Origin: Stegostoma tigrinum
Taxonomy: Eukaryota
NCBI RefSeq assembly: GCF_030684315.1
Contig: NC_081365.1
Span: forward strand, 39,089,830 to 39,153,829
DNA: 64,000 nucleotides
Reading direction: 5' to 3'
The notes below the pieces were generated by a model. That model did no database searches and had not been told where the DNA came from. It saw nothing but the letters and a program-made list of their open reading frames with translations. The stretch's first letter is position 1. The number at the start of each line of letters is the position of its first letter. The translations under genes were made by a program, and so were the position numbers. Shown here piece after piece: positions 37,486-64,000 of the stretch.

Positions 37486-37539
37486 TTTTTGCCAAGTGCA
37501 AGTTTTTCTTATAGTTGAAAAAGATTTTTTCTCCAGTTA

Positions 37540-38230: not shown

Positions 38231-38306
38231 AATTGGAATCACTGTCTGACAGACCTGATAAAATTTAAATGAAGACCGATTACAAATCCAATGACCTGGG
38301 CTTTAC

Positions 38307-38746: not shown

Positions 38747-39289
38747 TTTTTGGATCTTTTACACACAACTAAATCGAATTCAAATTCCTAAGTGCTAATG
38801 AAGTGCTAAGTGCTAAAAATCAAAAACAAAACCTTAAATATTTTAGTTGGCGTATCAACAGTTAAGATCTCGTGTTAATTATTTCTGCTTTTTACTCGCT
38901 CCGAAGCTGCCTATTGATCAATAGGCTCGAAAACATGCATTACTTGTTTTTTATCCCCAAAATCCCAGTCCACTCAAATAAGTAACAAAAAATTAAAGAC
39001 ATGTTGCCAGCCACAGGATTGATTTGTACTTGTAATTTGGGTATAGGATCAGACTTGAACTTCAAGTGATTAAAACTGTTATATTTCCGAAATAACAGTG
39101 TGGAGCTGAATGATATTCCCAAAGACTTTGTTATCAATCATTAAACTATGACAGTGACTGACATTATTGTGCGGATCACCTTATAATATGAAACAGCCGA
39201 TTTCCCGTCAGCTGAACATAAAACAACCTAGTCTCGACTCGTAACACATTCCCTGCTATTCACTCAACCAAAAACACCAACTCCCTCAA

Positions 39290-39610
39290 CTTTCGATAAC
39301 TTCGTTTCTTTCGGTTTTCACCACTGTACAAAATGGTTTAAAATCCGGGAAAAAAAAAACACTGCTAGTCCGGAATAAAGTTTCGAACACCAAACTATTC
39401 AATCAGACTCGTTACTTTCTGTCTCTCCCCGATTTCCTTTGTGATTGACAGCTAAGCAGTCCAATCAGCAGTTTCCACACTCAGGACGATCCCAGGAAGT
39501 GCATGATCAATGATCAATTCTCAAGAGTTTGCCGTGAGGCGTTTCGAGCAGAAATGACTGGGAGGTGCTGCCAATGCAGGATCGGAGGATTAAGTGCTCG
39601 GGAGTCTACC
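39290..39610 (-). promoter_or_regulatory. Probable TRIM45 promoter / 5' UTR region
   Basis: Locally raised CpG content, CCAAT-like boxes (ccaatcag near 39461) and an ETS site (caggaagt near 39493), about 0.6-0.8 kb upstream of the ATG. Confidence 0.45.
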
Positions 39611-39621
39611 CGTTTTATATC

Positions 39622-40610
39622 GAGCCAAGCAGCATCTCAGGAGCACAAAAGCTGACGTTTCGGGCCTAGACCCTTCATCAGAAAAGGGGGATGGGGTGAG
39701 GGTTCTGGAATAAATAGGAAGAGAGGGGGAGGCGGACCGAAGATGGAGAGAAAAGAAGATAGGTGAAGAGTGTATAGGTGGGGAGGTAGGGAGGGGATAG
39801 GTCAGTCCAGGGAAGACGGACAGGTCAAGGAGGTGGGTTGAGGTTAGTAGGTAGGAGATCGAGGTGCGGCTTGGGGTGGGAGGAAGGGATGAGTGAGAGG
39901 AAGAACAGGTTAGGGAGGCAGAGACAGGCTGGGCTGGTTTTGGGATACAGCGGGGGGAGGGGAAGAGCTGGGCTGGTTGTGTGATGCAGTGGGTGGAGGG
40001 GACGAACTGGGCTGGTTTTGGGATGCGGTGGGGGAAGGGGAGATTTTGAAGCTTGGGAAGTCCACATTGATACCATTGGGCTGCAGGGTTCCCAAGCGGA
40101 ATATGAGTTGCTGTTCCTGCAACCTTCGGGTGGCATCATTGTGGCACTGCAGAAGGCCCAGGATGGACATGTCGTCTAAGGAATGGGAGAGAGAGGCGAA
40201 ATGGTTTGCGACTGGGAGGTGCAGTTGTTTATTACGAACCAAGTGTAGGTGTTCTGCAAAGCGGTCCCCAAGCCTCTGCTTGCTTTCCCCAATGTCGAAG
40301 AGGCCACATCGTGTACAGCGGATGCAGTATACCACATTGGCGAATGTGCAGGTGAACATCTGCTTAATATGGAAAGTCATCTTGGGGCCTGGGATGGGGG
40401 TGAGGGAGGAGGTGTGGGGGCAGGTGTAGCAATTCTGCCATCTGCAATCCGACCCCACCGAAGACATTATTTCCACCCCACCCTTGCCTGCTTTCTGGAG
40501 GGATCACTCTCTCCGTGACTCCCTCGTCCGCTCCACGCTTCCCTCCAACCCCCCCCCCCCCCCCCCCCCACACCCGGCACTTCCCCTGCAACCGCAGGAA
40601 GTGCTCCACA
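39622..40610 (-). mobile_element. Penelope-like element, 5'-truncated, with an inverted 5' segment (about 40436-40610)
   Basis: GIY-YIG domain (NVVYCIRCTRCGLFDIGESKQRL) on the minus strand; the adjoining upstream piece is present on the plus strand. Hammerhead core at 39654-39681. Confidence 0.92.
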
Positions 40611-41919
40611 ACAACAAAAACAAAGTTGCTGGCAAAGCTCAGTAGGGTCAGCTGACCTGAAATGTTAACTCTGTTTTCTCCTCCACAGATGCTGCCAGAC
40701 CTGCTGAGTTTTTCCAGCAACTTTGTTTTTGTTCCTGATTTAGAGTTTCCACAGTTCTTTTGGTTTTTATCTCCTATTTAATCTATTTGTGCTCACACTT
40801 TGTACCTAATTCAATGCGCACAGTGTCTCACTCATGCCTTTTCACGGTGTTCCCCTTCAGCCAGAGCTAAAGAGTCACAGTACTTCTTGTTGTAGTCGCT
40901 GTTGAGGGATAATTATTGGCTTGTCGAGTAGGATTTCTCCCCAGCTCTTCTTCTAGATAGCACCATTGGTAGAAACTTTCCGGTCCTGAACAGCATGTGT
41001 ATTGGTGAGTCAGTTGGGAACACAGCAGAAATTAGGCTCCTGAGATCAAGAAACAGATACAACAGCTAAGTTTTGAATGGCGAGAAAAGAATCTTGTTAT
41101 TGAGCAACTCGAAGTGTACTTCCATTTATGTGCATACAGTAGCATGACATTACTAACTCACCTCACTGATATGTAGCTTCCTTTAGCCCCAATGAATGGA
41201 TGGAACCTAGACAGGACAAGTCCCGACATGAAAGTCAGAACAATAACCTGGTGACTCCATCTTGCTGCTTTTTCCACTGGGCCTTCATCTTGGACAGCAT
41301 TCCCCCAACATCTCACAGCATGGTCAATAACGCTCCAGAAGCTTGACACCAGCAAAGCAAACTGCTTTAATGGAACCCTAAATCACAGCTTCAATATTCA
41401 TTGCCTATACAGGGACATGCAATGTCAGCAGCGTGTACTACAAAAGGTACAGCAACAAGTCCCCATAGCTTCTTGGATAAAACAATATATAAAAAGAAAC
41501 AAAAAAATGCAGGTATTGGAAATCTGAAACAAAAACATAAATTTCTGGAGAAACTATTGTTCAAAACTGTTCTGAAGAAGGATCACTGGACCCAAAATGA
41601 TCTGCTGAGTTTCTGTTTTTGGCTTTAGACAACACCTTCCAAAATCAGCAATTTCTACCACCTGGAAGTACAGACTCAGCAGATAAATGCAAACCTCACT
41701 GTTTGCAAGTTCTCCAAAGCTGCGCTCGAAACTAACTTTGAACTATGTCAACATTTCTTATCACTGGTGAAAAATCCTGCAAGTATGCCCCTAACTGCAT
41801 TGTAGACTTCCACAACAAATGGATTACAGTGGTTCAGAATTAAATCCAGTGCTACCTTCTCAAGGGCATTTTGGGATGAGCAGTAAGGGGTGATCACATG
41901 TGAGCTTTGCTCACATCAT

Positions 41920-42540
41920 ATTAATGTAGAAACATGAAACTGGGAGCAGGAGTCAAAAATTCAACTCTTCAAGTCCGCTTTATCATTCAATATGATCATA
42001 GCCAATTCAGTGCCCTGTTCCTGCGTTTTACCCCCATGCTCTTTGATCCCATTAGTCCTAAGAATTACATCTAATTCCTTTTTGAAAGCATTCAATATTT
42101 GAGCCTCAACTGCTTTCTGTGGCAAATAATTCCACAGGCTCACCACCCTCTTAGGGAAGAAATTTCTCCTCATTCCTGCCCTACATGGCCTATTCCATAT
42201 CGTTAAACTGTGACCTCTGAATCTGGACTCCCCAGTCATCAGAAACATCTTTCTTGTGTTATCCTGTCTTGGCATGTTCAAAATTTGTCGGTTTCCTCTA
42301 AATACCACTGGATATAGTTATTAACCAATTCAGTTTCTCTTCAACCCTGCAATCAGAGGAATCAGTCTGGTAAAGCTTTGTTGCACTTTCTCTTTAGTAA
42401 AAGCCCCTGCTTCTATATTTGAATCCTGTCACTATGAAGGCCAAAATACCATTCACCTTCTTCAGTGCCAGCCGCATCTGCAGGTTTACTTTCAATGACC
42501 GACTTTGTTGCACTTCCACATTTCACAATTTATTGCGTTC
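41920..42540 (-). mobile_element. CR1 LINE 3' fragment
   Basis: ORF 41961-42308 (RGHSL...RRNFFPKRVVSLWNYLPQKAVEA). Confidence 0.8.
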
Positions 42541-43025
42541 AGATAAAATTAGCTCATTAAGTGAAAGACTGTTAGTTAATTAAAGAGAAGTAAAATTGGA
42601 CAGCAAATTCCATTCTGGTCCTCCCTGCACATATTCAGTTACACATGAACATCCAAACATTCCTGATCAGGTTTCTGCCCTCTTATGTAAATATTGCTGC
42701 ATCTGTACAAATTCAGTTGGGACAATGTTACCCTGTATTTTATTTATAGCCAAGAACTCGTTAAGACACTAAATGCATGCAGTTTATGTGAACAGTTATT
42801 TTCTAGGTGTCTCATTGTCTCTGATTAATTTGTTACATGTTTCACATTGGTGACATCATGAAAACCACTGCATGGATCTTGCCTGCTTGTAAATTCTCCA
42901 CTTCGTTAGATGCAAAGATCACCAGGGTCGACCCAGAAAGTTCACAAGTTTTAACTGCTAATGATGTTTGCCAGACAGATTCTCACTCCTGCTAAGTATA
43001 TCAAAAGCTTGCGCACTTTTAAGTG

Positions 43026-44079
43026 AGAGATAATGGGAACTGCAGATGCTGTAGAATCCAAGATAATAAAGTGTGGAGCTGGATGAACACAGCAGGCCAA
43101 GCAGCATCTTAGGAGCACAAAAGCTGACGTTTCGGTCCTCGACCCTTCATCAGAGAGGGGGATGGGGAGAGGGAACTGGAATAAATAGGGAGAGAGGGGG
43201 AGGCGGACTGAAGATGGAGAGAAAAGAAGATAGGTGGAGAGGAGAGTATAGGTGAGGAGGTAGGGAGGGGATAGGTCAGTCCAGGGAAGACGGACAGGTC
43301 AAGGAGGTGGGATGAGGTTAGTAGATAGGAAATGGAGGTGCGGCTTGGGTGGGATGAAGGGATGGCTGAGAGGAAGAACAGGTTAGGGAGGCAGAGACAG
43401 GCTGGGCTGGTTTTGGGATGCACTGGGGGGAGGGGATGAACTGGGCTGGTTGTGTGATGCAGTGGGGGGAGGGGACGAACTGGGCTGTATTGGGATGCGG
43501 TGGGGGAAGGGGAGATTTTGAAACTGGTGAAGTCCACATTGATACCATTGGGCTGCAGGGCTCCCAGGCGGAATATGAGTTGCTGTTCCTGCAACCTTCG
43601 GGTGGCATCATTGTGGCACTGCAGGAGGCCCATGATGGACATGTCATCTAAAGAATGGGATGGGGAGTTAAAATGGTTCGTGACTGGGAGGTGTAGTTGT
43701 TTATTGTGAACCGAGCGGAGCTGTTCTGCAAAGTGGTCCCCAAGCCTCCGCCTGGGTTTCCCCAATGTAGAGGAAGCCACACCGGGTACAATGGATGCGA
43801 TATACCACATTGGCAGATGTCCAGGTGAACGTCTGCTTAATATGGAAACTCATCTTGGGTCTTGGGATGGGGGTGAGGGAGGAGGTGTGGGAGCAAGTGT
43901 AGCACTTCCTGCGGTTGCAGGGGAAGGTGCCAGGTGTGGTGGGGTTGGTGGGCAGTGTGGAGCGGACAAGGGAGTCACGGAGAGAGTGGTCTCTCCGGAA
44001 GGCAGACAAGGGTGGGGATGGAACAATGTCTTGGGTGGTGGGGTCGGATTGTAGATGGCGGATGTGTCGGAGGATGATG
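43026..44079 (-). mobile_element. Penelope-like element, 5'-truncated, with a 10-bp TSD
   Basis: Frameshifted GIY-YIG region. cttttaagtg is duplicated at 43016-43025 and 44080-44089. Hammerhead core at 43126-43153. Confidence 0.93.
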
Positions 44080-45724
44080 CTTTTAAGTGGTTGGATTCAC
44101 TCATCAACCACAAAGCTCATGAAAATGTTCTTTGGCTGAGCTTTTCTGCACTGTATTAGAAAAATATACAAATGCAATCCACAGTCCAGACACCTCTATT
44201 TATATGAACCTTTCTGCACTTTGAACTCTTTTTGATATGGACTTTGCAAGCTTGTGGTGCAGTCACATTTTTAACCAAAATGCACAGTTTAGGTTTAGTA
44301 TATATTTACACAATAAGTGATTAGATGAAGATACTAAATACAAACAATACGATGGCCTAAATAATAGAAGAGCGTCCCTTCATCCCATTGCACCACCATG
44401 TCCTCAACGTACCACATTTCCAAATGGCAGATAACATTACCATGCACTCACTGAAGAAGATAACATGGTAAAACCACACAGCAAGACTTCCCCTTCACAA
44501 AAGTGAATATCGAGAGGAAACTGAAAGCAATTGGTTTTCAGTTATTTTTTTGGAAAAAAACTGGATATTTACCCAATTAAGAGTATCAGTTGTGTTATTG
44601 TTATACAGAGAAAGCATTTTACCGTTGGAATAGGAGTCATGCTTTAACCATATAAATGCTGAAAGCTGACATGGATGTTATTCTTTGGTAAACTAAAGAG
44701 AATAAAGGCTTTAAAATGTGCTCAAATTTCCCGTTTGGTTTTCTGATAATTCATTCTCTCTTTTAAAGATTATTTGATCCACTCAGTTTCTATATGATGA
44801 GAACCTGGATCAAGAACCTTTGTCCAAGTTGCACTGATACTTTTGAATTAATGCAAATCCAAAAATGTTGTCATCTATGCGGAAATGGTATGCAACAAAA
44901 TATATAAGCCAACCTTAGATTGTTAAATGACTACTGTGCCTTTTCAGGTTTTATTAATCAAACTAAATCTCTTGGAACAGATAAAAATGTAAATATACTT
45001 GCAATAATGTTATCCAATCTGCCAATAAATGATTTTATGGGTTTTTTTGGCTGTGAAATTAATGATAATAGTAACAACACTAGTCTTATTCTGCACAATT
45101 CACAAAATTAAACTTGAAAGTCTGGACGTTGCTTCCTATGATATTGCTACATCCCTGTAAAATTTACAAAGATAGTATTTCACTGGCTGGATTCACAATT
45201 AAATGTGTAGAATAAAGTGAACTTGCAGTACCTGGTACTTGCATAATAAATATGGATTAAGTCCACAAGATTGAAAGGGAGCTCATCCATTTGAATCGAA
45301 GTATCCTTGTAATGATGTGGTATGTTTTATTTACTTCCAAACAACATCCCCAGCCCTGAAAATTCAATTTTTCAGGAATGTGGAGCCATCCCTTGAGGTT
45401 TTCGTTATTACTTGGTATTTAAAAGAAATTTAAATACTTTGTAAGACCTTTTCTTTCTGAATATTGGATTTTATCGCTGAATCTAATATTATTGTAACCA
45501 GCTGATTTTATTTTCTGTATGTAATTTTAAAAGTAAATTAAGTATTCTAACTGATATTTCCATGCCTAGATTCTAAACCTCATCAGTTCAGGTTGTTTAT
45601 TTGTAAATTAGACTCTTGATATCTATTAGTTTATTGTAGATGGTTGTACAAGAAAGATAAATAGGTCAGCAACAAGAATGCACTCCAGCCCACCCCACAA
45701 CACTCCACAACCCACACACATGAA

Positions 45725-45819
45725 GGGTCTGATGAAGGGTCTAGACCCGAAACGTCAGCTTTTGTGCTCCTGAGATGCTGCTTGGCCTGCTGTGTTCATC
45801 CAGCCTCACATTTTATTAT
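45725..45819 (+). mobile_element. Minimal PLE insertion consisting of the hammerhead core (45729-45756) plus the 3' terminus, with an 8-bp TSD
   Basis: cacatgaa at 45717-45724 and 45820-45827; CTGATGA-A-GGGT[CTAG]ACCC-GAAAC-GTC. Confidence 0.85.
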
Positions 45820-46587
45820 CACATGAACCAGAAGGTGGTTGAAGGATTTCAAACCTAAATGTTGCTTTGCTTTCCTTCCAGCCACAGACAGGCACATCAC
45901 GTATCACCATTGTAGCCATCTGTAAATAAATGGTGGTTATATATTAAGATATTAATCTAGTAATGTCAGTCATCACACTAAAAGTGCACAGGTGAAAAAT
46001 AAGATGTTTTTTCATTGAGGTCCACTGTAGCAATGTTATGGTCAAACACATTGTCTTAGGGAATTAGTTATATCTGCAACTGGAACAGAAGCCTACAGCA
46101 GTGTAATCATCAGTGCAACAAACATTTAACAATGCAGAAAAATTGCAGTCAATATGTACAGGTTGTTATTGAATGTTTTCCAGAACACTCGATAAAGTCC
46201 AGTAAGATTTGTTTATGATGGAATTAGGTTCTTTACAAATGGAATTAATATTATCTCACCTAGTGTTGCAGGGCTGTGGAAAATGCTTGAGGAATAGGGT
46301 GTGCTGTGTTGCTGTTGCAGAGAGTCAACAGAAGCACCTTGAGTCAAACAGCCTCCTTATGTGTTATAACTATTCTATGATATACGTTCAGTAAGAACCT
46401 TCAAAGTAAAATTCGGTGAGTATGTGAGGGAGAAAAACATTCCAGGATACAGAAAAAGAGTTAGATTCTTGTCTTCCTCTTTGAAAGAATTGGCTCTGAC
46501 TGGAAGGACTGAATTACTTACTTTTCGGCTGCTCTTTTCTATGAAAAAGAGAAATGGAAATACACACAAGTTTATCTTGAGATGAGA

Positions 46588-47515
46588 AAGAGATAACAAA
46601 GTGTGGAGCTGGATGAACACAGCAGGCCAAGCAGCATCATAGGAGCACAAAAGCTGACATTTCGGGCCTAGACCCTTCATCAGAGAGGGGGATGGGAGAG
46701 GGTTGTGGAATAAACAGGGAGAGAGTGGGAGACAGATCGAAGATGGATAGAGGAGAAGATTGGTGGAGAGGAGACAGACAAGTTAAAGGAGTGGGGAGGG
46801 AGTGAGGAGACGTGAGTGTAGGTGGGGAGGTTGGGAGGGCATAGGTGAGTCTGGGGACGACGGACAGGTCAAGGGGGCGGTTTGAGGTTAGAAGGAAGGA
46901 AATGAGGGTGTGGCTTGAGGTGGGAGGAGGGGATAGGTGAGTGGAAAGACAGGTTGGGGGCGCAGGGATGAGCTGGGCTGGTTTTGGGATGCAGTGGGAG
47001 GAAGGGGAGATTTTGAAGCTTGTGAAATGCATATTGATACCATTGGGCTGCAGGGTTCCCAAGTGGAATATGAGTTGCTGTTCCTGCAACCTTCGGGTGG
47101 CATCGTTGTGGCACTGCAGGAGGCCCAGGATGAACATGGCGTCTAAGGAATGGGAGGGAGAGTTGAAATGGTTCGCGACTGGAAGATGTGGTTGTTTATT
47201 GCAAACCAAGCGTAGGTGTTCTCCTTGGTTTCCCCGCTGTAGAGGAGGCCACAACGGGAACAGCAGATGCAGTATACTGCATTGGCAGATGTGCAGGTGA
47301 ACATCTGCTTGATGTGGAAATTCTTCTTGGGGCCTGGGATGGGGGTGAGGGAGGATGTGTGGGGGCAAGTGCAGCACTTCCGGCAGTTGCAGGGCTAAGT
47401 GCCGGGTGTAGTGTGGTTGGACCGGAGTGTGGAGCGAACAAGGGAGTCACAGAGAGAGTGGTCCCTCCACAAAGCAGACAAAGGTGGGAATGGAAAAATG
47501 TCTTTGATGGTGGGG
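46588..47515 (-). mobile_element. Penelope-like element, older and more diverged copy
   Basis: Same GIY-YIG/3' sequence with indels (ORF 46637-47377). Confidence 0.9.
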
Positions 47516-49074
47516 TGATATTGGCATGCTCTGTGTGCTAAGTGCTGAACTTAGTGTTTCATTCCATGTTGAATACAAAATGATAAGTAATGCAGACAAG
47601 ATGTTCTCCAAATTGGACTTCCCAAAAGTAAAACAGTTCAATTCTTCAAGCAAAGGAATCAGTAATAGTTGTGTATTTAATCTGGCACTGACCAGTGGGA
47701 GCTGTATAGTACAGAATAGCAATTACCCTTAATTTCTCTGCAGCAATTAAGCAGCAGTGATGGTCATGGCGGTTTTTTTCAAAAAATTGTAGTTTGAGAC
47801 AAAATGGCTAAAAGAAAAAGATAAGAAATGCTGTTAGCAATATATATTGGATACTATTCAAAATGAAAATTACTGCAATACTAGTCGTTATTGTATATTA
47901 ACAGCACAGCAATCCTACTGCTGAACTTAAGGAACTACATATCTCCATCTGGTGTGTAAAAAACAATTTATCATAATCTGTTCCATTTGTTTTGCCTTTT
48001 ATCCTACATGCTTCAATTTTGCTAATAATCCAAATTTTGTACCTTATCAAAAAACTTCTGGAAGTACACGTACACAACATTTATTGCAATACCTTCATCA
48101 ATTCTCCTTGTTGCCTCATCAAAAAAAAACTCCATCAAGGCAATCATGCACAATTTGTCCTTTAGAAATCCAGCCTGGTTCAACTTTATTAGTCCAAGTA
48201 ACGATCAATTTTCTACTTCTTTGGCACCAGTTTTTGGGTAAATTTCCCAGGTTAGTACTCTTTCTAGTGCTTCCATTCGTTTAACCTTCACATTATCCCA
48301 AAGCTTCGTTCACCTTCATTGGCAAAGTCATCTTTCATCAATAAGCGTGAATAGATCGCAAGCACTTTTTTGGCCTGCCCCAATTGTTTCCATTTTAGGC
48401 ATGCAATGTAGACTGTAAAGACCATTTTTTTAATGTTTCTGTGTTTTTGATCTTGGACTGCAAGGTTGAAAAGCCAAGAATTTTCAAAAGATCGCTACAT
48501 ATTTTAAAACCAATTAATTTGAAACTTATTGTAAGTGCTGTTTAAGGAACTGTTGGTTCAGATTGTGGGGGAAAGTCAAGTTGTAGACAAGTTAGTGACA
48601 ACAATGTGTGACGAATGGAGATTTGACCAGAAACATGTAGCAGATTAGCCAGTTATTGATGACAAATACCTTCTGCTTGCCAACATTTTGTCATTGGCTC
48701 CCAGATAGTCTAACAGTTGGGAGGTGTGAATGTTTGGATAGAAGCCATAAAACATCTGGAAGTAAAGGAGCTAACCAGGTGGAGTATCACGAGGAAGTGA
48801 AGGAATTGTTTTTTGCTCTGCTGAAAAAAAAATGCATCTCAAGCCTAAAAGTAGACAGCTTAGTTCTCCCATCAGTTACTTTAAGCTTTAAATAATAAGT
48901 CAGAGACCTTTATTAGTGTCAAACAGTTGCCCTGTGCCTCCTGCAAACAAGTGAGAAAACCAGAAGAAGGAAGATGAGGAAGCAGTGCTCTGATCAGGAG
49001 TAGGATCATCTCAGGAAGTCCTTCAAAAAGGATCATTGCGCTGCCTTCCTGTCTTTCTCTCTGCCCATAATACC

Positions 49075-49205
49075 AATTTCTGAAGAAGGGTCTAGGCCCG
49101 AAACGTCAGCTTTCCCGCTCCTCTGATGCTGCTCGGCCTGCTGTGTACATCCAGCTCCACACCTTGTTATCTCGGATTCTCCAGCATCTGCAGTTCTTAT
49201 TATCA
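49075..49205 (+). mobile_element. PLE 3' terminus with an intact hammerhead core (49080-49107)
   Basis: CTGAAGA-A-GGG[TCTAGG]CCC-GAAAC-GTC followed by the family-A terminus. Confidence 0.85.
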
Positions 49206-50122
49206 CTATTATCCGAGACGAAAAGCAGAAACTGCCGGAGAACCTCGATTCACGATTCGAGTCTACTATGAGCCTTTCTTTATTGGAGTCGAAAGGTTTA
49301 CCGTGCTTCCGTCTTCACAGATGCAGCCAGACTGCTCTGTTAGAATGTGACACATTGGAACCTTTTGAACTTCTTTTTACCGACCACTGAGAACATAAAA
49401 AGATTGAAACAGAGACAAAAACACTGGGTTAAGTTTTTGGTATTCGCTTAGGGTTTTAGACCGACAGGTGTAAGTGTTTCCATTGAGATTGGGATCGTAA
49501 AAGTACAAGAGGGCACTGAGACTGACAAAACTCATTCCCCTCTCAGGAAGCATGGCTAGTGTTTTTATATGATTGTGGGGAGGTAGGTTGGATTGATTGT
49601 CTGTTACACCCTCAGATACACTATTATAGAAAAGGAAGGAGCGTGCTCTAAGTCCACTCATTAAATGGTACTCATTATGTTAGGAAGAGTTTAAAACCAT
49701 TGACACTCGGGAGGAATGTATGATACATCTGTATTTATCATTTTGACAAACGAATCAACTTTAAGCCTCGGTTAAAAAGTGAAGAAGCAGAAGAATGCCT
49801 TAATAGGTTGTGAATCCATAGTCCACAGTCACTTAATCTCACCCTGTGAATTTCATTTACATTCCAGGAATGATACAGTACCGCATCTTTCTTGTGGTAA
49901 TGAGTTTGTTTCTGCTCCAGTGTGTGTTTAGCTCCCCAAGTGAACGGTCAGTGATTAGACTATTTAGCAGAGTTTTTTTTAGAAAAAGAAGATAAACGTT
50001 TGCATCTCTTTGACTTTATCTCTCAAATGTTCTGGTGGCAACGTCAACTCGTTGTCAACAAATAATGACACGGTACTTGTTAAATTTACAAGTCTGGTAC
50101 AAACGATTTGTCATGGCAATTT

Positions 50123-52012
50123 GTATCAGCGATAGTGGGAACTGCAGATGCTGGAGAATCCAAGATAACGAAATGTGAGGCTGGATGAACACAGCAGGCC
50201 CAGCAGCATCTCAGGAGCACAAAAGCTGACGTTTCGGGCCTAGACCCTTCATCAGAGAGGGTGATGGGGTGAGGGTTCTGGAATAAATAGGGAGAGAGGG
50301 GGAGGCGGACCGAAGATGGAGAGAAAAGAAGATAGGTGGAGAGGAGAGTATAGGTGGGGAGGTAGGGAGGGGATAGGTCAGTCCAAGGAAGACGGACAGG
50401 TCAAGGAGATGGGATGAGGTTAGTAGGTAGGAGATGGAGGTGCGGCTTGGGGTGGGAGGAAGGGATGGGTGAGAGGAAGAACAGGTTAGGGAGGCAGAGA
50501 CAGATTGGACTGGTTTTGGGATGCAGTGGGTGGAGGGGAAGAGCTGGGCTGGTTGTGTGGTGCAGTGGGGGATGGGGACGAACTGGGCCGGTTTTGGGAT
50601 GCGGTGGGGGAAGGGGAGATTTTGAAGCTTGGGAAGTCCACATTGATACCATTGGGCTGCAGGGTTCCCAAGCGGAATATGAGTTGCTGTTCCTGCAACC
50701 TTCGGGTGCCATCATTGTGGCAATGCAGGAGGCCCATGATGGACATGTCATCTAAAGAATGGGAGGGGGAGTGGAAATGGTTTGCGACTGGGAGGTGCAG
50801 TTGTTTATTGCGAACCGAGCGGAGGTGTTCTGCAAAGCGGTCCCCAAGCCTCCGCTTGGTTTCCCCAATGTAGAGGAAGCCACACCGGGTACAGTGGATG
50901 CAGTATACCACATTGGCAGATGTGCAGGTGAACCTCTGCTTAATGTGGAAAGTCATCTTGGGACCTGGGATAGGGGTGAGGGAGGAGGTGTGGGGGCAAG
51001 TGTAGCATTTCCTGCGGTTGCAGGGGAAGGTGCCGGGTGTGGTGGGGTTGGAGGGCAGTGTGGAGCGAACAAGGGAGTCATGGAGAGAGTGGTCTCTCCG
51101 GAAAGCAGACAGGGGTGGGGATGGAAAAATGTCTTGGATGGTAGGGTCGGATTGTAGATGGCGGAAGTGTCAGAGGATGATGCGTTGTATCCGGAGGTTG
51201 GTGGGGTGGTGTGTGAGAATGAGGGGGATCCTCTTTGGGCGGTTGTGGCGGGGGCAGGGTGTGAGGGATGTGTTGCGGGAGACGCGGTCAAGGGAGTTCT
51301 TGATCACTGTGGGGGGAAGTTGCGGTCCTTGAAGAACTTGGACATCTGGGATGTGTGGGAGTGGAATGCCTCATTGTGGGAGCAAATGCAGCAGAGGTGG
51401 AGGAATTGGGAATAGGGGATGGAATTTTTGCAGGAGGGTGGGTGGGAGGATGTGGATTCTCGGTAGCTCTGGGAGTCGGTGGGCTTGAAATGGGCATCAG
51501 TTACAATCTGGTTGCCTGAGATGGAAACTGAGAGATCCAGGAAGGTGAGGGATGTGCTGGAGATGGCCCAGGTGAACTGAAAGTAGGGGTGGAAGGTGTT
51601 GGTGAAGTGGAGGAACTGTTCGAGCTCCTCTGGGGAGCAAGAGGCAGCGCCGATACAGTCATCAATGTAACGGAGGAAGAGGTGGGGTTTGGGGCCTGTG
51701 TAGGTGCGAAAGAGGGACTGTTCCACGTAACCTACAAAGAGGCAGGCATAGCTGGGGCCCATGTGGGTGCCCATGGCCACCCCCTTAGAGTGTAGGAAGT
51801 GGAAGGAATCGAAAGAGAAGTTGAGGGTGAGGACGAGTTCGGCTAGGCAGATGAGGGTGTTGGTGGAGGGGGACTGGTCGGGCCTGCGGGACAGGAAGAA
51901 GCGGAGGGCCTTGAGGCCCCCTGGCCCCCAACACCTCATTTTCACCATGGACGTCCAGTCCCTATACACCTGTATTCTGCATGCAGATGGCCTCATCCAG
52001 CCTCACATTTCA
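50123..52012 (-). mobile_element. Penelope-like element (RT plus GIY-YIG) with a 5' inversion and a 15-bp TSD, inserted in the pseudogene V exon
   Basis: RT motifs GVAMGTHMGPSYA and RYIDD plus GIY-YIG on the minus strand. TMDVQSLYT is inverted on the plus strand at about 51921-51994. ttgtcatggcaattt occurs at 50108-50122 and 52013-52027. Confidence 0.95.
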
Positions 52013-53718: not shown

Positions 53719-54479
53719 ACTATTCAAATGCAGGTTTCACTTTCTCTTTTTCCAGCTTTACATCATCAATAAACTTGAATAATTATACTTTATTTCTATA
53801 TCCAAGTTCTTGATATGAACAATAGCCGAGGTCCTTGACTTGCCAAATGCAGTCTGTCAACCCAACGATGACTGTTTGCACTCTCTCCATGTTATCAATA
53901 TGACGTTTGTCTTGTGCAGCACCTAATTGATCATTTCTGAAAATCCAAATACACCTTCGCCCCAGATCTACCCTTCTAGCTATATCCTCAAAAACCAATA
54001 ATTTGTGGAACATGTCTCCCTATTGTAAGGTCAGGTTGACTCTGTATGCTCATGATTTTCTAAATGCAATGAAGTCGTGTACCTATTGAACGAATCATGT
54101 ATTTTCCATACTGTCTACATAACCTCGAGGAACATCCTCCAGCCCGCCCCCAAGCCAGCCCAGCAATCCACCATCTCCACCAACAACAACCCTTCAAACA
54201 CAAAAGTGCACAAAGAAATAGACGCAGAACATTTACGCACTGCATTGATAATGATTTCACCACATACCATGTTTAAAGAGCCGTATCCGCACCAGAATGC
54301 CCTTTTACAAACATCCCCAAAATTGAGCTGGTCCCCGAGTACCGGTCGGTGGTGAGCAGCAGTCAATGTGGTGTGACACAGTGCTCGCTACACCCGCATC
54401 AATCTCGCTGCGACTTGAATTTCCCGCATGATAACCAATATTTCCAAGTAACCCGTGAGGCAGCGTCATCCTCAGTAAC

Positions 54480-54516
54480 ATGGGCGCAGTTCTCAGGCTC
54501 TGGCTCTTGGTCTTAG
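54480..54516 (+). CDS. VJ gene 2 exon 1: leader MGAVLRLWLLVL(G)
   Basis: Good Kozak context (aacATGG), hydrophobic peptide, phase-1 donor TTAG|gtaagg and a 95-bp intron. Confidence 0.9.
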
Positions 54517-54611
54517 GTAAGGATTCACTTTGATTCCAGCTAGAAGTCATTACAGTTAGACTTGGATTCCGTGGAGCTAATGGTCCCATTTGTTGCCTTG
54601 TTATGTTCCAG

Positions 54612-54953
54612 GGCCTGTTGTCCCTCTGGAAGTGATTGAGTCTCCTCCAGTTCTCTCCCTCCTGAGAGGACAGACGGCTCGGATCTACTGTAGCCTGATA
54701 CCGGGGGAGGAGCTGGCTGATTTTGTGAAATATTATTGGTGTCGGGCAAGAGACGCTCCTGATTTGAACAGCAACATATCCAGGATCTTCGTGAAAAACA
54801 GCCCCCGTGTGTCCGTGTCTATGTCTGAGAGTTTTCTCATTATCCGGGAGCTGATGCTGAATGATTCGGACACTTACCGATGCGTGGTTCTTAGAGAGAA
54901 ACCTCGGCCCTGGAAATACTTCCTGGGAAATGGAACAACATTGAACGTCCAAG
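54612..54953 (+). CDS. VJ gene 2 exon 2: single-exon germline-joined V-set Ig domain
   Basis: 342-nt phase 1-1 exon (ttatgttccAG|GG...CAAG|gtaatt) encoding PVVPLEVIESPPVLSLLRGQTARIYCSLIPGEELADFVKYYWCRARDAPDLNSNISRIFVKNSPRVSVSMSESFLIIRELMLNDSDTYRCVVLREKPRPWKYFLGNGTTLNVQ. It has the Cys, Trp, DSxTYxC and GNGTTLNV motifs. Confidence 0.93.
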
Positions 54954-55644
54954 GTAATTGTGAAAGATCGTAAATATTCAGCAGATTGGGTTGCATCTGG
55001 AAACAGAAACAGGTCACGGTTCAGAGAAACGACCTTTGCTGATAAACTGTTCACCAGTAAAACCTCCAGCTTCTTCCAGTTCTCACCAAAACACGCCGAC
55101 CTGAGCCGTGACCTGTTTCTGTTCCCACAGAGACTGCCTGAGTATTTCCAGCAACCGTGATATTTTGTTTCTGATTCAGTCTGGACAGACTAGACAGGGA
55201 GAGGCTATCCCATGTCCGAAACCAAGCGGTACAGGCTGACACTGAATATCTCAAGAAGCAGAATCCACATGAGGGTTCGGTTTTAGCTCGCACTGCCGCA
55301 GAGTGTGGCGGACACAGATTCAATCGGGAATTTTAAAACAGGTTGGGACAACAACCTGAAGAGGAGCATTCCAAAGAGAAACATTTTTCAGAGTTGCCGA
55401 AAGAGCCGAGTTGCTCCGGCTCAGTATGGACACGATGGGCCAAATCGCCTCGGTCTGTGCAGAGGCCTTTCTCTGACTCGATTAAGGGAGAACGAAATAG
55501 CTCAATGTGCGAGAGAAGGAAACAGAAATAGTGCCCAGAAACACACTAATATAAACCAGACTGGGGGTTCTTTGGGATCGAATGGTTCGCCCGGGACGAT
55601 CTTTAATCTGACGGTAACCCCTCACCACCTCCTTTTCTATTTAG

Positions 55645-55682
55645 AACCTTTCAGTCCAGATCCTTTTCAAAACTTAGTTTGA
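55645..55682 (+). CDS. VJ gene 2 probable terminal exon (E)PFSPDPFQNLV*
   Basis: Strong acceptor cctccttttctatttAG|AA in phase 1, TGA at 55680-55682, AATAAA at 55740-55745 and a T-rich downstream element. Confidence 0.7.
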
Positions 55683-55825
55683 AGAAAAACGTCCAAAAGA
55701 CAAACTTCTGTAATCCGAAACCCAACAAGTCAAAGACCGAATAAAACGAAACTGATTTTGGGACAAAGGTTCATTTTTTTATCATTTCCCGGAATATACT
55801 GAAGTAAAAAAAACACAAAACCGAG

Positions 55826-57200
55826 TTTGTGTCGGAACCAGTGAGCCTTACGTCTGTTGTAGGAAAAGTTTTGGAAAGGATTATAAGAGATAGGATTCAT
55901 AATCATCGAGCAAGCAACAATTTGATTAGAGATAGTCAGCATGGATTTGTCAAGGGCAGGTCGTGTCTCACAAACCTCATTGAGTTTTTTGAGAAGGTGA
56001 CCAAGCATGTGGATGAAGGTAGGGCAGTTGACGTGGTGTACATGGACCTCAGTAAAGCCTTTGGTAAGGTTCCACATGGTAGGCTATTAGTGAAAATCCA
56101 GAGGCATGGGATTGAGGGAGATTTAGCAGTTTGGATCAGAAACTGGCTTTGTGTAAGAAGGCAACGAGTGGTGGTTGATGGAAAATATTCAGCCTGGAGT
56201 CCGGTCACTGGTGGTGTGCCTCAACGATCTGTTCTGTGACCACTGCTGTTTGTCATTTTTATAAATGACCTGGATGCAGGCATAGGTGGATGGGTTAGTA
56301 AGTTTGCAGATGACACTAAAGTTGGTGGAGTGGTGGACAATGTGGAAGAATGTTGGAGGTTGCAGGGAGACTTGGATAAACTGCAGAATTGGGCCAAACG
56401 GTGACAAATGGAGTTTAATACAGATAAATGTGAGGTGATTCACTTTGCGAGAAATAATAGGAAGGCAGAATACTGGGTCAATGGAAAGATTCTTGTTAGT
56501 GTGGATGTGCAGAGGGATCGTGGTGTCCATGTACTTAGATCCCTGAAAGTTGCCACCCAGGTTGATAGTGCTGTTAAGAAGGCTTACGGTGTGTTAGGTT
56601 TTATTGGTAGCGGGATTGAGTTCCAGAGCTGTGATGTCATGATGCAATTGTACAAAACACTAGTGTAGCCTCATTTGGAATATTGCGTGCAGTTCTGGTC
56701 GCCCCATTACAGGAAGGATGTGGAAGCATTGGAAAAGGTGCAGAGGAGAGTTACCAGGATGTTGCCTGGTCTGGAGTGCAGGCCCTATGAAGAAAGGCTG
56801 AGGGACTTGAGTCTGTTCTCATTGGAGAGAAGGAGGCTCAGAGGGGATTTAATAGAGATGTACAAGATGATCGGAGGATTAGATAGGGTGGACAGTGAGA
56901 ACCTTTTTCCGAGCATGATGACTTCAGCTTGTACAAGGGGGCATAGCTACAAATTGAGGGGTGATAGATTTAAGACAGATGTCAGAGGCAGGTTCTTTAC
57001 TCAGAGAGTGGTAAGGGCGTGGAATGCCCTGCCTGCCAATGTAATTAACTCAGCCACATTAGGGGCATTTAAATAGTCCTTGGATAAGCCTACGGATAAT
57101 GATGGGATAGTGTAGTGGAGGGGCTGAGGTTAATTCACAGGTCAGCGCAACATGGAGGGTCTGAAGGGCCTGTTCTGTGCTGTATTGTTCTATGTTCTAT
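55826..57200 (+). mobile_element. CR1-clade LINE (HER1-like), 5'-truncated, with in-frame stops
   Basis: ORFs 55829-56239, 56408-56668 and 56675-57076 carry RT motifs; the 3' tail is tgttctatgttctat. Confidence 0.96.
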
Positions 57201-57490: not shown

Positions 57491-58333
57491 CTGACTGGAA
57501 AATCAATATAAACGGATAGATCGGATGGCACAATATTAAGTGGTCAGGCAACGTAGAGAAATTCAATTGATCGATATTCCTTGATGAATGTATACAAGTG
57601 TCTACTGCAATGCGACCCAAGGAAGGATTCTTGTCAGGAAATCAGGACGAGTAGCCAGCAGAATATTCTATAGCCGGTGGATTACCTCAGTTTTTATTAT
57701 AAATTCAGACTTACTTAAAACAAAACTGAATTGTTTAAATGAGAAAATTTACTTCCAAAAATGTATTCTTCAAACTTGTTTAAGTGGCATTTGCTGACCT
57801 AAGTGTTTGCTGGAACTATAAAATATGACTTTTAATTGCTACATTACACACAGTTTGTGAACAACACCCCATTCTACCGTTGGAATTCCGTTTGACAAAC
57901 CATGTATTCTTTTGATGCATTCCTTACGGTGTATCACTGCTAAGTACAACGCGAAACAGAATGTTTTAAATTGGCCGTTTGGGAATAAACAGTATTTGGT
58001 CGAGAGAAAAAAGAACAGAAGTTGTTGGAAAAGCTCAGCAGGTCTGGCATCATCAGTGAAGAAAAATCGGGGTTAAGATTTGGGTCCGGTGACCCTTCTT
58101 CAGTATTTGGTCGACATTTCGTATTGTTTTTCTCCAATCAACTTTACAGTATGGCTGGAAGGGAACTGGGTGCAAATCGGAAAGTTGGTGACTGGAAGGT
58201 TTAAAATGACGATTTTGTTCATAAAATCACACTTCATCTATAATTGTATCAGAGATAATGGGTTTTTTTTTAACTCGTCCTCACACTCAACAACTTCTCT
58301 TTTGACTCCTCCCACTTCCTACAGACTAAGGGG

Positions 58334-59638
58334 GTGGCCATGGGCACCCGCATGGGCCCCAGCTATGCCTGCCTCTTTGTAGGTTACGTGGAACAGTCCA
58401 TCTTCCGCACCTACACAGGCCCCAAACCCCACCTCTTCCTCCGGTACATTGATGACTGTATCGGCGCCGCCTCTTGCTCCCCAGAGGAGCTCGAACAGTT
58501 CATCCACTTCACCAACACCTTCCACCCCAACCTTCAGTTCACCTGGGCCATCTCCAGCACATCCCTCACCTTACTGGACCTCTCAGTCTCCATCTCAGGC
58601 AACCAGCTTGTAACTGATGTCCATTTCAAGCCCACCGACTCCCACAGCGACCTAGAATACACCTCCTCCCACCCACCCTCCTGCAAAAATTCCATCCCCT
58701 ATTCCCAATTCCTCCTCCTCCGCCGCATCTGCTCCCACGATAAGACATTCCACTCCCGCACATCCCAGATGTCCAAGTTCTTTAAGGACCGCAACTTCCC
58801 CCCCACGGTGATTGAGAACGCCCTTGACCGCGTCTCCCGCATTTCCCGCGACACATCCCTCACACCCCGCCCCCGCCACAACCGCCCCAAGAGGATCCCC
58901 CTCGTTCTCACACACCACCCTACCAACCTCCGGATACAACGCATTATCCTCCGACACTTCCGCCATTTACAATCCGACCCCACCACCCAAGACATTTTTC
59001 CATCCCCACCCCTGTCTGCTTTCCGGAGAGACCACTCTCTCCGTGACTCCCTTGTTCGCTCCACACTGCCCTCCAACCCCACCACACCCGGCACCTTCCC
59101 CTGCAACCGCAGGAAATGCTACACTTGTCCCCACACCTCCTCCCTCACCCCCATCCCAGGCCCCAAGATGACATTCCACATTAAGCAGAGGTTCACCTGC
59201 ACATCTGCCAATGTGGTATACTGCATCCACTGTACCCGGTGCGGCTTTCTCTACATTGGGGAAACCAAGCGGAGGCTTGGGGACCGCTTTGCAGAACACC
59301 TCCGCTCAGTTCGCAACAAACAACTGCACCTCCCAGTCGCAAACCATTTCCACTCCCCCTCCCATTCTCTTGATGACATGTCCATCATGGGCCTCCTGCA
59401 CTGCCACAATGATGCCACCCGAAGGTTGCAGGAACAGCAACTCATATTCCGCCTGGGAACCCTGCAGCCATATGGTATCAATGTGGACTTCACCAGTTTC
59501 AAAATCTCCCCTTCCCCCACTGCATCCCTAAACCAGCCCAGTTCATCCCCTCCCCCCACTGCACCACACAACCAGCCCAGCTCTTCCCCCCCACCCACTG
59601 CATCCCAAAACCAGTCCAACCTGTCTCTGCCTCCCTAA
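58334..59638 (+). CDS. PLE ORF remnant: C-terminal RT (RYIDD), thumb/linker and GIY-YIG endonuclease
   Basis: 434-aa open frame with AMGTRMGPSYA, RYIDD, FLDL-like (LLDL) and NVVYCIHCTRCGFLYIGETKRRLGDRFAEH. The N-terminus is missing, so it is not autonomous. Confidence 0.9.
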   Translation: MAMGTRMGPSYACLFVGYVEQSIFRTYTGPKPHLFLRYIDDCIGAASCSPEELEQFIHFTNTFHPNLQFTWAISSTSLTLLDLSVSISGNQLVTDVHFKPTDSHSDLEYTSSHPPSCKNSIPYSQFLLLRRICSHDKTFHSRTSQMSKFFKDRNFPPTVIENALDRVSRISRDTSLTPRPRHNRPKRIPLVLTHHPTNLRIQRIILRHFRHLQSDPTTQDIFPSPPLSAFRRDHSLRDSLVRSTLPSNPTTPGTFPCNRRKCYTCPHTSSLTPIPGPKMTFHIKQRFTCTSANVVYCIHCTRCGFLYIGETKRRLGDRFAEHLRSVRNKQLHLPVANHFHSPSHSLDDMSIMGLLHCHNDATRRLQEQQLIFRLGTLQPYGINVDFTSFKISPSPTASLNQPSSSPPPTAPHNQPSSSPPPTASQNQSNLSLPP

Positions 59639-59862
59639 CCGGTTCTTCCTCTCACCCATCCCTTCCTCCCACCCCAAGCCGCACCCCCAGCTACCTACTA
59701 ACCTCATCCCACCTCCTTGACCTGTCCGTCTTCCCTGGACTGACCTATCCCCTCCCTACCTCCCCACCCACACCTTCTCCACCTATCTTCTTTACTCTCC
59801 ATCTTCGGTCCGCCTCCCCCTCTCTCCCTATTTATTCCAGTTCCCTCCCCCCATCCCCCTCT

Positions 59863-59890
59863 CTGATGAAGGGTCTAGGCCCGAAACGTC
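59863..59890 (+). ncRNA. Minimal hammerhead ribozyme core of PLE family A
   Basis: CTGATGA-A-GGG[TCTAGG]CCC-GAAAC-GTC; the loopless ACGU stem III is typical of PLE minimal hammerheads. Confidence 0.8.
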
Positions 59891-60404
59891 AGCTTTTGTG
59901 CTCCTGAGATGCTGCTTGGCCTGCTGTGTTCATCCAGCCTCACATTTTATTATCTTCATCTATAATTAGCAGTTTCTGGAACGTTCAGTGTAGGTAGAAA
60001 AAGGCCCAGATTTTCCGGAAGCTAGATAGTCATTGTTACAGTGGCCGGGAGGCGTGCATGGGGACCCTGCGGACGAACAAATTGCCCGAGGCACTAAAGA
60101 TTCTGTGGACATATCCTCTCTTAAAGTCTCCACATTTGAAAGTTTCTAATGAAATTCAGTAAGTAATTACTCAGGAGAAGGCAAGTACCTTGTACTAAAT
60201 TGCCCCCGCCCCCCCCCCCCAACAGTGACGAACCCCTTACCCCACCTCCCCCAGGGGACTTACAGACCCGGATCCTGACTTGAAACCCAGATCGGATCTG
60301 ACCTGTTCCCCACCTCCCCCCCCCCTCCCCACACCCCACCTTACTGACCAAGTACACTACCCTCTACTCAGCTGGCACCTTAATTTGTATCCTATGCCAG
60401 GGTC

Positions 60405-62370: not shown

Positions 62371-64000
62371 AAATATAATGCAAATAGCATACCTGATACT
62401 ATGTATAAATCTATCACTACATTGATAGCTAGTAAGGACAAAAGTGTAGAATTAAAGGTGATGACTGGATACAGGTCAGTGACCTCCAACAATTATTTCT
62501 AGGATAAGCAACTTTGTCAGTTTGACATGAGAAATTTCCAGAAAAATCGAAGTGTGAAGTTTCAGATCCAAATATCCATGTGCAAAAAGTAGTGCTCAGA
62601 GGAGTCTGTTACATGCATGAGTATTTTTTAATGAGATGCACTGTACAACACAAGTCTGCACTGAGTAGAAATATGCCCAAATGGAGAGCTAATCAATAGC
62701 TGGGACTGTAGAGAGATTAGTGGCAGACTGAATAAAAAAACTGAGCAGATAGGTAGTTGGACATTTAACCAAACATAAAAGAAATTGACTAGTGTAGCAG
62801 CACATTGATAACAATCTTTGAGGCCGAGGTTTGGAATTAATGGGGTTTTTATGCACTACTAATAGATCTTTGTTTACCTTAGATTGCTGAGTTATAAAGC
62901 AGTGAATATAATGCAACATTAAGATTTGCTAAAAGTTTCTGAAATTACTTTAAATTTAAAGATAAACAACCATAGCTTAAAGAGGTTTATGGTTTTTATT
63001 TGAGCTTTGAGCAGTTCTATGAAGTTGTTTGACAAAGGTGCTTGAATGGCAATCTGCTGTGGAGAAGGGAAGGACATAATGAAACTAGATTACCTTGGAG
63101 TAAAGAATTCATAATAGTACTAGACAAGAAGTTGTGATAAAATCCTGAAAAAATGATTTAAAGTATGAATAAAATAACTCCAGGAAGAAATTATCAGCAT
63201 TTCCAATCTAGAAGTTAAAATAACAATCAAATTGACTGAGGTGTTAGAGAAAGGGATTCTGGTACAAGTACTATATGCATGATGTTTTTGAGTACTATAC
63301 AAGATAAATCATTGGGTGCAGTAACGGGTATGAAACAAAATTGATGTTTTTCTTCTCAAATTGTAAAGGAGTGTGTTGGGATTAATGGGGTTAGTTTTGC
63401 TGTGTATTTAAAAATGTGTTACAAGTATATAGTTTGGTTTAATCTATACATCTTGATTTTGTTTATGGATAAACTCGTTTTTTGTTTTAAAGCAAAATCT
63501 CTAGCAATGTGTGCTTATGTTTCAGCGAGAGATAACTTCGTTACATCTAAATGAAAACAAAGTAGAATTTGATCAAACAAGTCAGGTTTCAATCTGGTTT
63601 CTGATTTGTCCAGGAGTAATATTAGTTGGGATCACAATTTTTCCAAGCAATTTTAGCATGCAACTCAGTCAGTGTAAACAGGTAAATTTACAACTGTGTT
63701 AACCTAGACCTATCAAACTAAATGTACAAGTAACAGATTTACTTTAAGCACTACTTTGTGTGCATGGCAGTTTCAAACTTAAAATTCACACTCCAATTAT
63801 AAACATTTCCTTTTGTGAACCGTAGAATTTTGGCTAATATGGAATTACCAAATTTATGGTATTATTCTATAAATTATTTTAGATAGTGATTCAAATACTA
63901 CCTACATTTTCAATGCCTAATTTTTAGGACCAGTAGTTTAAACTTAGCTCACTGTTTTACTATGACTGAAAGTTTACAAATGCTGGAAAGGTATCCTGTT

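What the first reader, a model, noticed from the sequence alone, without database searches (positions are those of the whole stretch)
54480..55745. Compact three-exon gene predicted to encode a secreted 138-aa single VJ domain with a free interface cysteine
Seen: leader, VJ exon, a 12-residue hydrophilic tail exon and AATAAA within 1.3 kb. There are three cysteines, the extra one directly after the core Trp (YYWCR). There are three N-glycan sequons (NIS, NDS, NGT) and a proline-rich FG loop (REKPRPW). Established: Trp+1 faces the GFCC' V-V pairing surface, and CD28/CTLA-4 bind B7 ligands through a proline-rich FG loop. Inference: a soluble disulfide-linked dimer, a surrogate chain (VpreB-like role) or a decoy for a B7-family ligand.
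Basis: partly seen in the sequence, partly recalled or inferred. Interest (0 to 1): 0.75.

Follow-up and report, generated by a model that had tools for sequence, protein, structure and literature searches.

The report
Shark inhibitory receptor's front end
The leader and antibody-like exon are real and match, with one changed residue, the front of an annotated shark cell-surface receptor that likely acts as an immune brake, so the proposed stand-alone secreted protein is probably a misreading, although RNA-like data from a related shark hint at a short soluble version made another way.

Summary
The DNA features are all there: leader, VJ exon, a strong acceptor at 55645, a stop, AATAAA, three cysteines and three sequons. 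But the leader and V match RefSeq XP_059506018.1 (Stegostoma tigrinum) with 1 change in 113 V residues. That protein is a 367-aa leader-VJ-C1-transmembrane receptor with four tyrosine motifs. All 18 close relatives from 9 shark and ray species continue into a C1 domain; none stops after V. In horn shark and sawfish, short-tailed sisters with an arginine at the transmembrane start make this a SIRP-like paired family. No C1 or membrane exon lies in the window, so either the gene runs past 64 kb or this copy is truncated. An RNA-like run from a related shark shows no V-to-55645 joint. Its main contig stops exactly at the V donor, and a weaker one reads into the intron. In this window that read-through would give a 132-aa soluble V ending GNCERS, with a fourth cysteine. 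The YWCR cysteine is also in the membrane forms and has a likely partner within the domain in horn shark. Verdict: front end of an annotated, little-studied receptor; the stand-alone three-exon gene is unlikely.

The parts
54480..54516 (+). Leader exon (12 codons plus 1 base; split leader)
   Evidence: identical to the first 12 residues of P0038; covered by X1 contig 1 from 54460
54517..54611 (+). Intron 1, 95 nt, GT-AG
   Evidence: X1 contig skips it (joint 54515 to 54605, i.e. an acceptor about 6 nt upstream of the window's, in frame by inference) and X1 has depth 0 in bin 54542-54598
54612..54953 (+). Single-exon VJ domain (V-set with GxGT J motif, YWCR, EKPRP loop); front of the VJ-C1-TM receptor
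   Evidence: Pfam V-set; 1 difference from P0038, 10 from P0043; model pLDDT 86.5
54954..54973 (+). Read-through of the V donor: codes GNCERS then TAA; would give a 132-aa soluble V with a fourth cysteine (Cys129)
   Evidence: X1 contig 2 covers 54924-54984 and its letters keep the in-frame TAA (tables 7 and 8)
55645..55682 (+). Proposed 12-codon tail exon; likely an unused or minor acceptor inside intron 2
   Evidence: acceptor and stop present; X1 contig 3 runs unbroken over 55626-55799 and no joint to 55645 is listed
55740..55745 (+). AATAAA, candidate intronic polyA signal
   Evidence: AATAAA occurs 0.84 times per kb per strand in this window
55801..55820 (+). A-rich stretch (15 of 20 A) just past the end of X1 contig 3; possible internal oligo-dT priming site
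55808..57076 (+). High-copy LINE (reverse transcriptase-like) remnant directly behind the proposed 3' end
   Evidence: ORFs (CR1-type label recalled); depth above 20,000 in the DNA-like runs from 55796 on; 72-79% inverted match to 999-1979

Best explanation
The leader and VJ exons match the front end of an annotated shark receptor (leader-VJ-C1-transmembrane-tail with four tyrosine motifs), so the main transcript likely splices the V exon to a C1 exon outside this window and makes a membrane protein predicted to be inhibitory, while the 12-residue tail exon is probably intron sequence. Shown: sequence match, domain layout of the relatives, absence of C1/TM exons in the window, removal of intron 1 in a related shark. 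Inferred: the V domain binds a self ligand on another cell (CD47-like or B7-like; unknown), the tyrosines (LHYASV, TEYAIL, VDYSTV, TTYASL) recruit SHP-type phosphatases as in SIRP-alpha, and a short-tailed sister with a transmembrane arginine supplies the activating partner through an ITAM adaptor. Also inferred: the Trp+1 cysteine is the remnant of a second disulfide within the domain whose partner was lost in carpet sharks, not a device for a secreted dimer.
For: P0038 and P0037 (S. tigrinum XP_059506018.1, XP_059506020.1) are 99% identical over the whole V, differ by one residue and have the same leader. 18 of 18 relatives at 48% V identity or more, from 9 species, continue into C1; 16 of 18 have a TM. 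A search among 62-198 aa proteins gave 3 candidates, none significant (weak). Run X1: contig 1 (depth 41.3) joins leader to V and ends at exactly 54953; contig 2 (11.4) enters the intron; contig 3 (9.9) crosses the 55645 acceptor unbroken; no joint to 55645 is listed. I infer that the larger share branches to an exon outside the stretch laid. X1's 19 listed V differences fall in 9 of the 10 codons where the full-length P0043 differs from the window. From the loose ends, the intron to 55645 would be only about 61 nt in X1's organism (worked out; too short for most vertebrate introns, recalled). A second copy of about 88% identity in the DNA-like runs is no better kept around the acceptor (34 differences and 3 gaps in 265 nt) than around the leader and intron 1 (25 in 210). 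Best solved-structure match of P0038 is the SIRP-alpha ectodomain 2wng, E 4.6e-20. P0046 and P0035 have a 2-residue tail, an Arg at the TM start, and V domains that group with their own species' long form.
Against: No C1, TM or tail exon in the 9,047 nt between the V donor and the window end, or anywhere in the window, so continuation is inferred, not seen. The window differs from P0038 at one residue, which fits an allele or a separate copy. The DNA-like runs suggest more than one near-identical copy: a contig break at 54352-54381, and a contig that leaves the window's sequence after 55728. A possible unrelated + strand gene may start near 60 kb (candidate exons 60058-60158 and 63526-63681; Atlas score 0.84, lead only). 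The 55645 acceptor-stop-AATAAA pattern is uncommon at its strength. The RNA evidence is one run of another species, held as contigs, and its RNA status is a guess. The V-to-C1 joint itself was not seen. RefSeq entries are gene models.
Confidence: 0.62

Rival explanations
1. The full receptor gene also makes a soluble V-only isoform by reading through the V donor and ending at the intronic AATAAA: 132 aa ending GNCERS, with Cys129 free to dimerise or to pair with Cys56. It would act as a decoy for the receptor's ligand, as secreted PD-L1 does. This can coexist with the best explanation.
For: In X1, intron 1 has depth 0 while the start of intron 2 is covered at depth 10-11 against 41 on the V exon; contigs 2 and 3 overlap by their loose ends and stop at 55799; the in-frame TAA is kept. 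Read-through ORF. Precedent: PD-L1 read-through into intron 4 with a cysteine tail that dimerises (PMC8233757 passages) and a LINE-derived soluble antagonist (PMC6877088 abstract). TM-less models exist in the family (P0041, P0039).
Against: The contig ends 54 nt past AATAAA, further than the usual 10-30 nt (recalled), right before an A-rich run, so unspliced pre-mRNA or internal priming explain it as well. Contig depth is a poor measure of expression. Whether X1's organism keeps the tail cysteine and the AATAAA is not shown, because not all differences were listed. One run, another species.
Confidence: 0.25
2. This is a truncated duplicate that kept only leader and V; the full-length gene is another copy. 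With no C1 to splice to, it would yield a V-only secreted protein (via 55645 or by read-through) or be a pseudogene.
For: No C1/TM in the window; one residue differs from P0038; signs of extra copies in runs X2, X3, X5; paired or partial copies are annotated in Hemiscyllium, Heterodontus and Pristis; LINE and Penelope-type insertions follow; possible other gene near 60 kb (lead only).
Against: A 9-kb or longer intron would be ordinary in a shark (recalled); none of 36 ORFs of 45 aa or more scanned in 57.2-58.3 and 60-64 kb had a Pfam match; the candidate 63.5-kb exon has low Atlas recognition (1544) and no PDB match.
Confidence: 0.22
3. One reading: a stand-alone, conserved three-exon gene whose 138-aa product is a disulfide-linked soluble dimer, surrogate chain or B7 decoy.
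For: All signals are present and in phase; the acceptor-stop-AATAAA pattern is found at only 3 of 54 strong acceptors; Cys56 has no partner in this sequence.
Against: Leader and V belong to a membrane receptor in 9 of 9 species examined; no joint to 55645 in X1, where that intron would be about 61 nt; Trp+1 is W, F, T or S in 4 of 9 species and the proline loop is lost in the same 4; no short annotated relative found.
Confidence: 0.07

Closest known systems
RefSeq XP_059506018.1 / 019.1 / 020.1 (Stegostoma tigrinum, 'tyrosine-protein phosphatase non-receptor type substrate 1-like') and orthologues in 8 other elasmobranch species
   Same: Identical leader; V differs by one residue.
   Different: The annotated protein continues into C1, TM and a 117-aa tail; those exons are not in this window.
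SIRP family (SIRP-alpha inhibitory, SIRP-beta activating)
   Same: Joined VJ followed by C1-set, four-tyrosine tail, short-tailed charged-TM sister; 2wng is the best PDB sequence match of P0038.
   Different: One C1 instead of two (two in Hypanus); Arg near the TM start rather than the mid-TM Lys of SIRP-beta (recalled); orthology and CD47 binding not tested.
PRARP pair (Fu et al. 2019, J Immunol 202:1992) and VJC1 genes (Ohta et al. 2019)
   Same: Non-rearranging VJ-C1 receptors with inhibitory motifs that occur as a pair (recalled); a second, distant leader-VJ gene faces the other way at 6308-5815 of this window.
   Different: Papers not held; only titles seen. Sequence and synteny could not be compared.
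CD300 / TREM / pIgR-type V domains
   Same: YWCR motif (PMC3031540).
   Different: The second cysteine is missing here (present in the Heterodontus orthologue); the receptor has a J motif and C1.
CD28 family, including CD28H-like genes (PMC11599192)
   Same: VJ domain with GxG and a proline-containing FG loop at similar spacing from the F-strand Cys.
   Different: No PPP or EIP motif; a C1 domain in the full form; not among the paper's supplementary accessions searched.
Secreted PD-L1 made by intron read-through
   Same: Mechanistic model for the possible 132-aa isoform: donor read-through, short cysteine tail, nearby LINE.
   Different: PD-L1 is a ligand and keeps two domains; the shark isoform is unproven.
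UrIg / UrIg2 (PMC12227049)
   Same: Non-rearranging single-exon VJ with split leader and C1; 9dmx is the second PDB match of P0038.
   Different: UrIg has three and UrIg2 nine or more C1 domains and they lie in the MHC or the antigen-receptor complex; here one C1, an ITIM-type tail, and a TRIM45-type neighbour.

Membership tests
Elasmobranch VJ-C1-TM receptor (XP_059506018 group) | Leader and VJ sequence of the group | tested here: met
   99% identity, groups with P0043 at 98/93 support
Elasmobranch VJ-C1-TM receptor (XP_059506018 group) | C1, TM and tail exons linked to this V | tested here: inconclusive
   absent from the window; only 9,047 nt downstream are visible
SIRP | Joined VJ followed by C1-set domain(s) | tested here: met
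   for the full-length relatives: Pfam V-set + C1-set; one C1 in most
SIRP | Inhibitory member with ITIM/ITSM-type tyrosines and short-tailed partner with charged TM | tested here: met
   P0038 four motifs; P0046 and P0035 have Arg and a 2-residue tail; SIRP layout recalled
SIRP | Orthology by tree and synteny; CD47 binding | not tested
   no SIRP sequence held as a usable protein; binding needs an experiment
CD28 family | Single V, TM and cytoplasmic tail (PMC11599192) | tested here: not met
   138-aa model has no TM; full-length relatives have C1
CD28 family | PPP or EIP motif in the CDR3/FG loop | tested here: not met
   loop is EKPRP and is lost in 4 of 9 species (motifs)
CD300/TREM/pIgR | YWCR motif | tested here: met
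CD300/TREM/pIgR | Second pair of cysteines in the V domain | tested here: not met
   only three Cys here; a fourth is present ten residues on in Heterodontus
VpreB-like surrogate chain | V domain lacking its own G strand (recalled) | tested here: not met
   GNGT motif and G strand 101-112 present in sequence and model
UrIg/UrIg2 | VJ plus three or more C1 domains, in the MHC or antigen-receptor complex (PMC12227049) | tested here: not met
   one C1 (two in Hypanus); neighbour is a RING/B-box/coiled-coil/filamin TRIM
PRARP / VJC1 | Sequence clade and synteny of the described genes | not testable with these tools
   papers not held
Rearranging Ig/TCR segment | Recombination signal next to the segment | tested here: not met
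   no RSS-like site near the exon; J motif is inside it

The most novel reading that the evidence does not exclude
A shark non-rearranging VJ-C1 paired receptor releases its ligand-binding V domain as a soluble, cysteine-tailed decoy by reading through the V donor and using an intronic polyA site (or, in a truncated copy, as its only product). That would be a membrane-versus-secreted switch of the immunoglobulin heavy-chain type acting on an innate receptor with antigen-receptor architecture.
Probability: 0.2. Interest if true: 0.6.

Novelty: new member of a known kind. Interest (0 to 1): 0.33.

Why it matters
The specific claim, a tiny secreted single-VJ gene, would have been a candidate relic of antigen-receptor origins, but it most likely dissolves into the first two exons of an already annotated receptor. 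What remains useful: this receptor pair (long inhibitory, short arginine-TM) is kept from horn shark to rays with ectodomains that group by species, sits beside a TRIM45-type gene, and was not found in the papers searched. If the read-through isoform is real, it gives a simple test of soluble-decoy control of an immune brake in the oldest lineage with adaptive immunity.

Tried and rejected
No whole genome is held for this window, so the sequence beyond 64 kb could not be read. No listed holder is on record as RNA; X1 is a guess and a small share, which I laid. Runs X2, X3 and X5 have no cover at 55739-55795; a hole in contigs proves nothing and is not used. RNA cover of 60-64 kb was not obtained, so whether another gene starts there, and whether X1's intron signal goes on past the LINE, stay open. 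A complex prediction for a V-V homodimer was not available; binding is untested. First structure model from 11 close sequences was poor (pLDDT 53.2) and was dropped for the 18-sequence model. Fold searches gave only general V/I-set matches (VNAR, TCR V-alpha, SIRP, NCAM) and do not name a family; the models return no distances, so the position of Cys56 on the GFCC' face rests on recalled V-domain numbering. tblastn and profile searches for C1/TM/tail remnants in the window found nothing better than E 0.26 and E 1.1, while the V profile found both V exons. An inversion between the flanking inverted Penelope-type copies was considered and rejected as the reason for the missing C1, since no C1 lies on either side. 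Phase-1 hydrophobic exon scan right of the V found none. Search for longer relatives of the second V exon: 67 candidates, none significant. Earlier findings near this place, by sequence and in relatives: none. Fu 2019 and Ohta 2019 are not held; their supplements, and those of PMC12227049, were not seen and may already list this gene.

Full report
Observation. The exon model can be built exactly as described: leader 54480-54516, VJ exon 54612-54953, acceptor at 55645, stop at 55682, AATAAA at 55740; 138 aa, Cys39/56/103, three sequons. The exon is a V-set domain with a confident V-type model (pLDDT 86.5) and no recombination signal nearby. The third exon is the weak link. Its pattern (strong acceptor, in-frame stop, AATAAA within 150 nt) occurs at 3 of 54 acceptors of that strength in the window, and at 52 of 508 when the bar is 14 of 20 pyrimidines. 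That is about 2% to 25% for a 0.7-kb stretch, so it is suggestive but not decisive.

What the V exon belongs to. A full-library search gave 31 hits, four of them at 49-59% identity; these are catshark, sawfish, stingray and electric ray proteins of 290-436 aa with V, C1 and TM. A search among longer proteins gave 6 hits of 195 candidates, led by two Stegostoma tigrinum models at 99%. P0038 (XP_059506018.1) has the same leader and one changed residue in V, so the window is likely zebra shark DNA (inferred). Taking all 18 relatives at 48% identity or more (9 species), every one continues into C1, 16 have a TM, and P0038 ends in four tyrosine motifs. Heterodontus and Pristis each have a second model with a 2-residue tail and an arginine at the start of the TM, whose V groups with the long form of the same species. 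This is the layout of paired inhibitory and activating receptors (PMC3031540, passages). The best solved match of P0038 is the SIRP-alpha ectodomain, then UrIg2. The search among 62-198 aa proteins found no V-only relative (3 candidates, none significant; weak evidence).

What is missing from the window. tblastn and profile searches found no C1, TM or tail exon on either strand, and only 9,047 nt follow the V donor. No genome is held. So the gene either continues past the window or this copy is truncated. For truncation: one residue differs from RefSeq; in three DNA-like runs (2 samples, 1 study) a contig breaks at 54352-54381, a second copy of about 88% identity appears, and the main contig in X2 and X3 carries 916 letters unlike the window after 55728; a possible unrelated exon at 63526-63681 has a leucine-rich-repeat look (score 0.84, lead only). 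Against: none of the 36 ORFs scanned downstream has a Pfam match.

Transcript evidence. One run, X1, is RNA by guess and from a related organism; 4 of the 5 listed runs were laid. Its contig 1 (depth 41.3) joins leader to V, with the joint placed at 54515-54605, about 6 nt upstream of the window's acceptor, and ends at exactly 54953. Contig 2 (11.4) runs from 54924 into the intron. Contig 3 (9.9) covers 55626-55799 in one piece, across the proposed acceptor. No joint to 55645 is listed. Had most molecules used 55645, contig 3 should be split there and deeper beyond it (my reading of how such contigs are built). So the larger branch most likely goes to an exon outside the stretch, which fits C1; that joint was not seen. 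X1's 19 listed V differences (of 22) lie in 9 of the 10 codons where full-length P0043 differs from the window. The loose ends of contigs 2 and 3 overlap and put the intron to 55645 at about 61 nt in that organism.

An unexpected alternative. Intron 1 has no depth in X1, but the start of intron 2 does, up to 55799. Reading through the V donor gives GNCERS and a stop, a 132-aa protein with a fourth cysteine, and X1 keeps that stop. This is how secreted PD-L1 arises, with a cysteine tail that dimerises (PMC8233757, passages; PMC6877088, abstract). But the contig ends 54 nt after AATAAA and just before a run of 15 A in 20, so pre-mRNA or internal priming fit too, and contig depth is a poor guide to expression. 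I put a real soluble isoform at about 0.25.

The cysteine and the loop. Trp+1 is Cys in 11 of 18 relatives (5 of 9 species), all with C1, and W, F, T or S in the rest. In Heterodontus a second Cys lies ten residues on. YWCR with two disulfides is the CD300 signature (PMC3031540). The FG loop EKPRP is kept in the same 5 species and is neither PPP nor EIP (PMC11599192, parts 1-4 of 6 read), so a B7 ligand is possible but not indicated.

Comparison and novelty. It works like a SIRP-type paired receptor; membership of SIRP or PRARP is untested. It fails the tested features of CD28, CD300, VpreB and UrIg (PMC12227049, parts 1-4 of 8 read). The gene is annotated automatically. I found no paper on it in six topic searches, an accession search or the supplements of PMC11599192 and PMC10751288 (main text of the latter seen as passages). 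Fu 2019 and Ohta 2019 were not held and may cover it. Earlier scan notes describe similar shark VJ-C1 paired families elsewhere; these are unchecked leads, and none matched P0038 by sequence.

Verdict. Leader and VJ exons real; stand-alone three-exon secreted gene unlikely (0.07); front end of the membrane receptor 0.62; truncated copy 0.22; soluble read-through isoform 0.25 as an add-on. Interest 0.33.

Noticed in passing
window 6308-5815, minus strand: A second intact leader + VJ unit (phase 1, two cysteines, GPGT motif), 28% identical to the finding's V and facing away from it across the TRIM gene; no C1 or clear TM exon to its left in the window and no longer annotated relative found. Could be the partner gene of a PRARP-like pair.
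   Followed up: partly
window about 22000-38760, minus strand: TRIM gene with RING, B-boxes, coiled coil and filamin repeat, the TRIM45 layout (name recalled).
   Followed up: partly
window 39590-52000 and 58270-59950: Four Penelope-type (label recalled) retroelement copies at about 3.5-kb spacing, and a 94-95% identical inverted copy on the other side of the VJ gene.
   Followed up: no
window 60058-60158 and 63526-63681, plus strand: Two possible exons of an unrelated gene: an ATG-started 33-codon exon with a GTAAGT donor and a 52-codon open exon with a leucine-rich-repeat-like motif; no Pfam or PDB match, Atlas 0.84.
   Followed up: partly
P0046 (Heterodontus) and P0035 (Pristis): Short-tailed sister receptors with an arginine at the TM start and ectodomains nearly identical to the inhibitory form of the same species, suggesting gene conversion in a paired system.
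   Followed up: partly
window 54416-54626, 54895-54984, 55406-55671: Runs X2, X3 and X5 hold a second copy of about 88% identity that lacks 54985-55405 of intron 2; it may be the activating sister gene.
   Followed up: no
window 10348-10534 and 11088-11274: 187-nt perfect inverted repeat, 553 nt apart; possibly a young element or an assembly artefact.
   Followed up: no
P0025, P0032: More distant V-C1-TM proteins with an (E/Q)IPPP loop like that of CD28H, linking the VJ-C1 layout to a CD28H-type motif.
   Followed up: no
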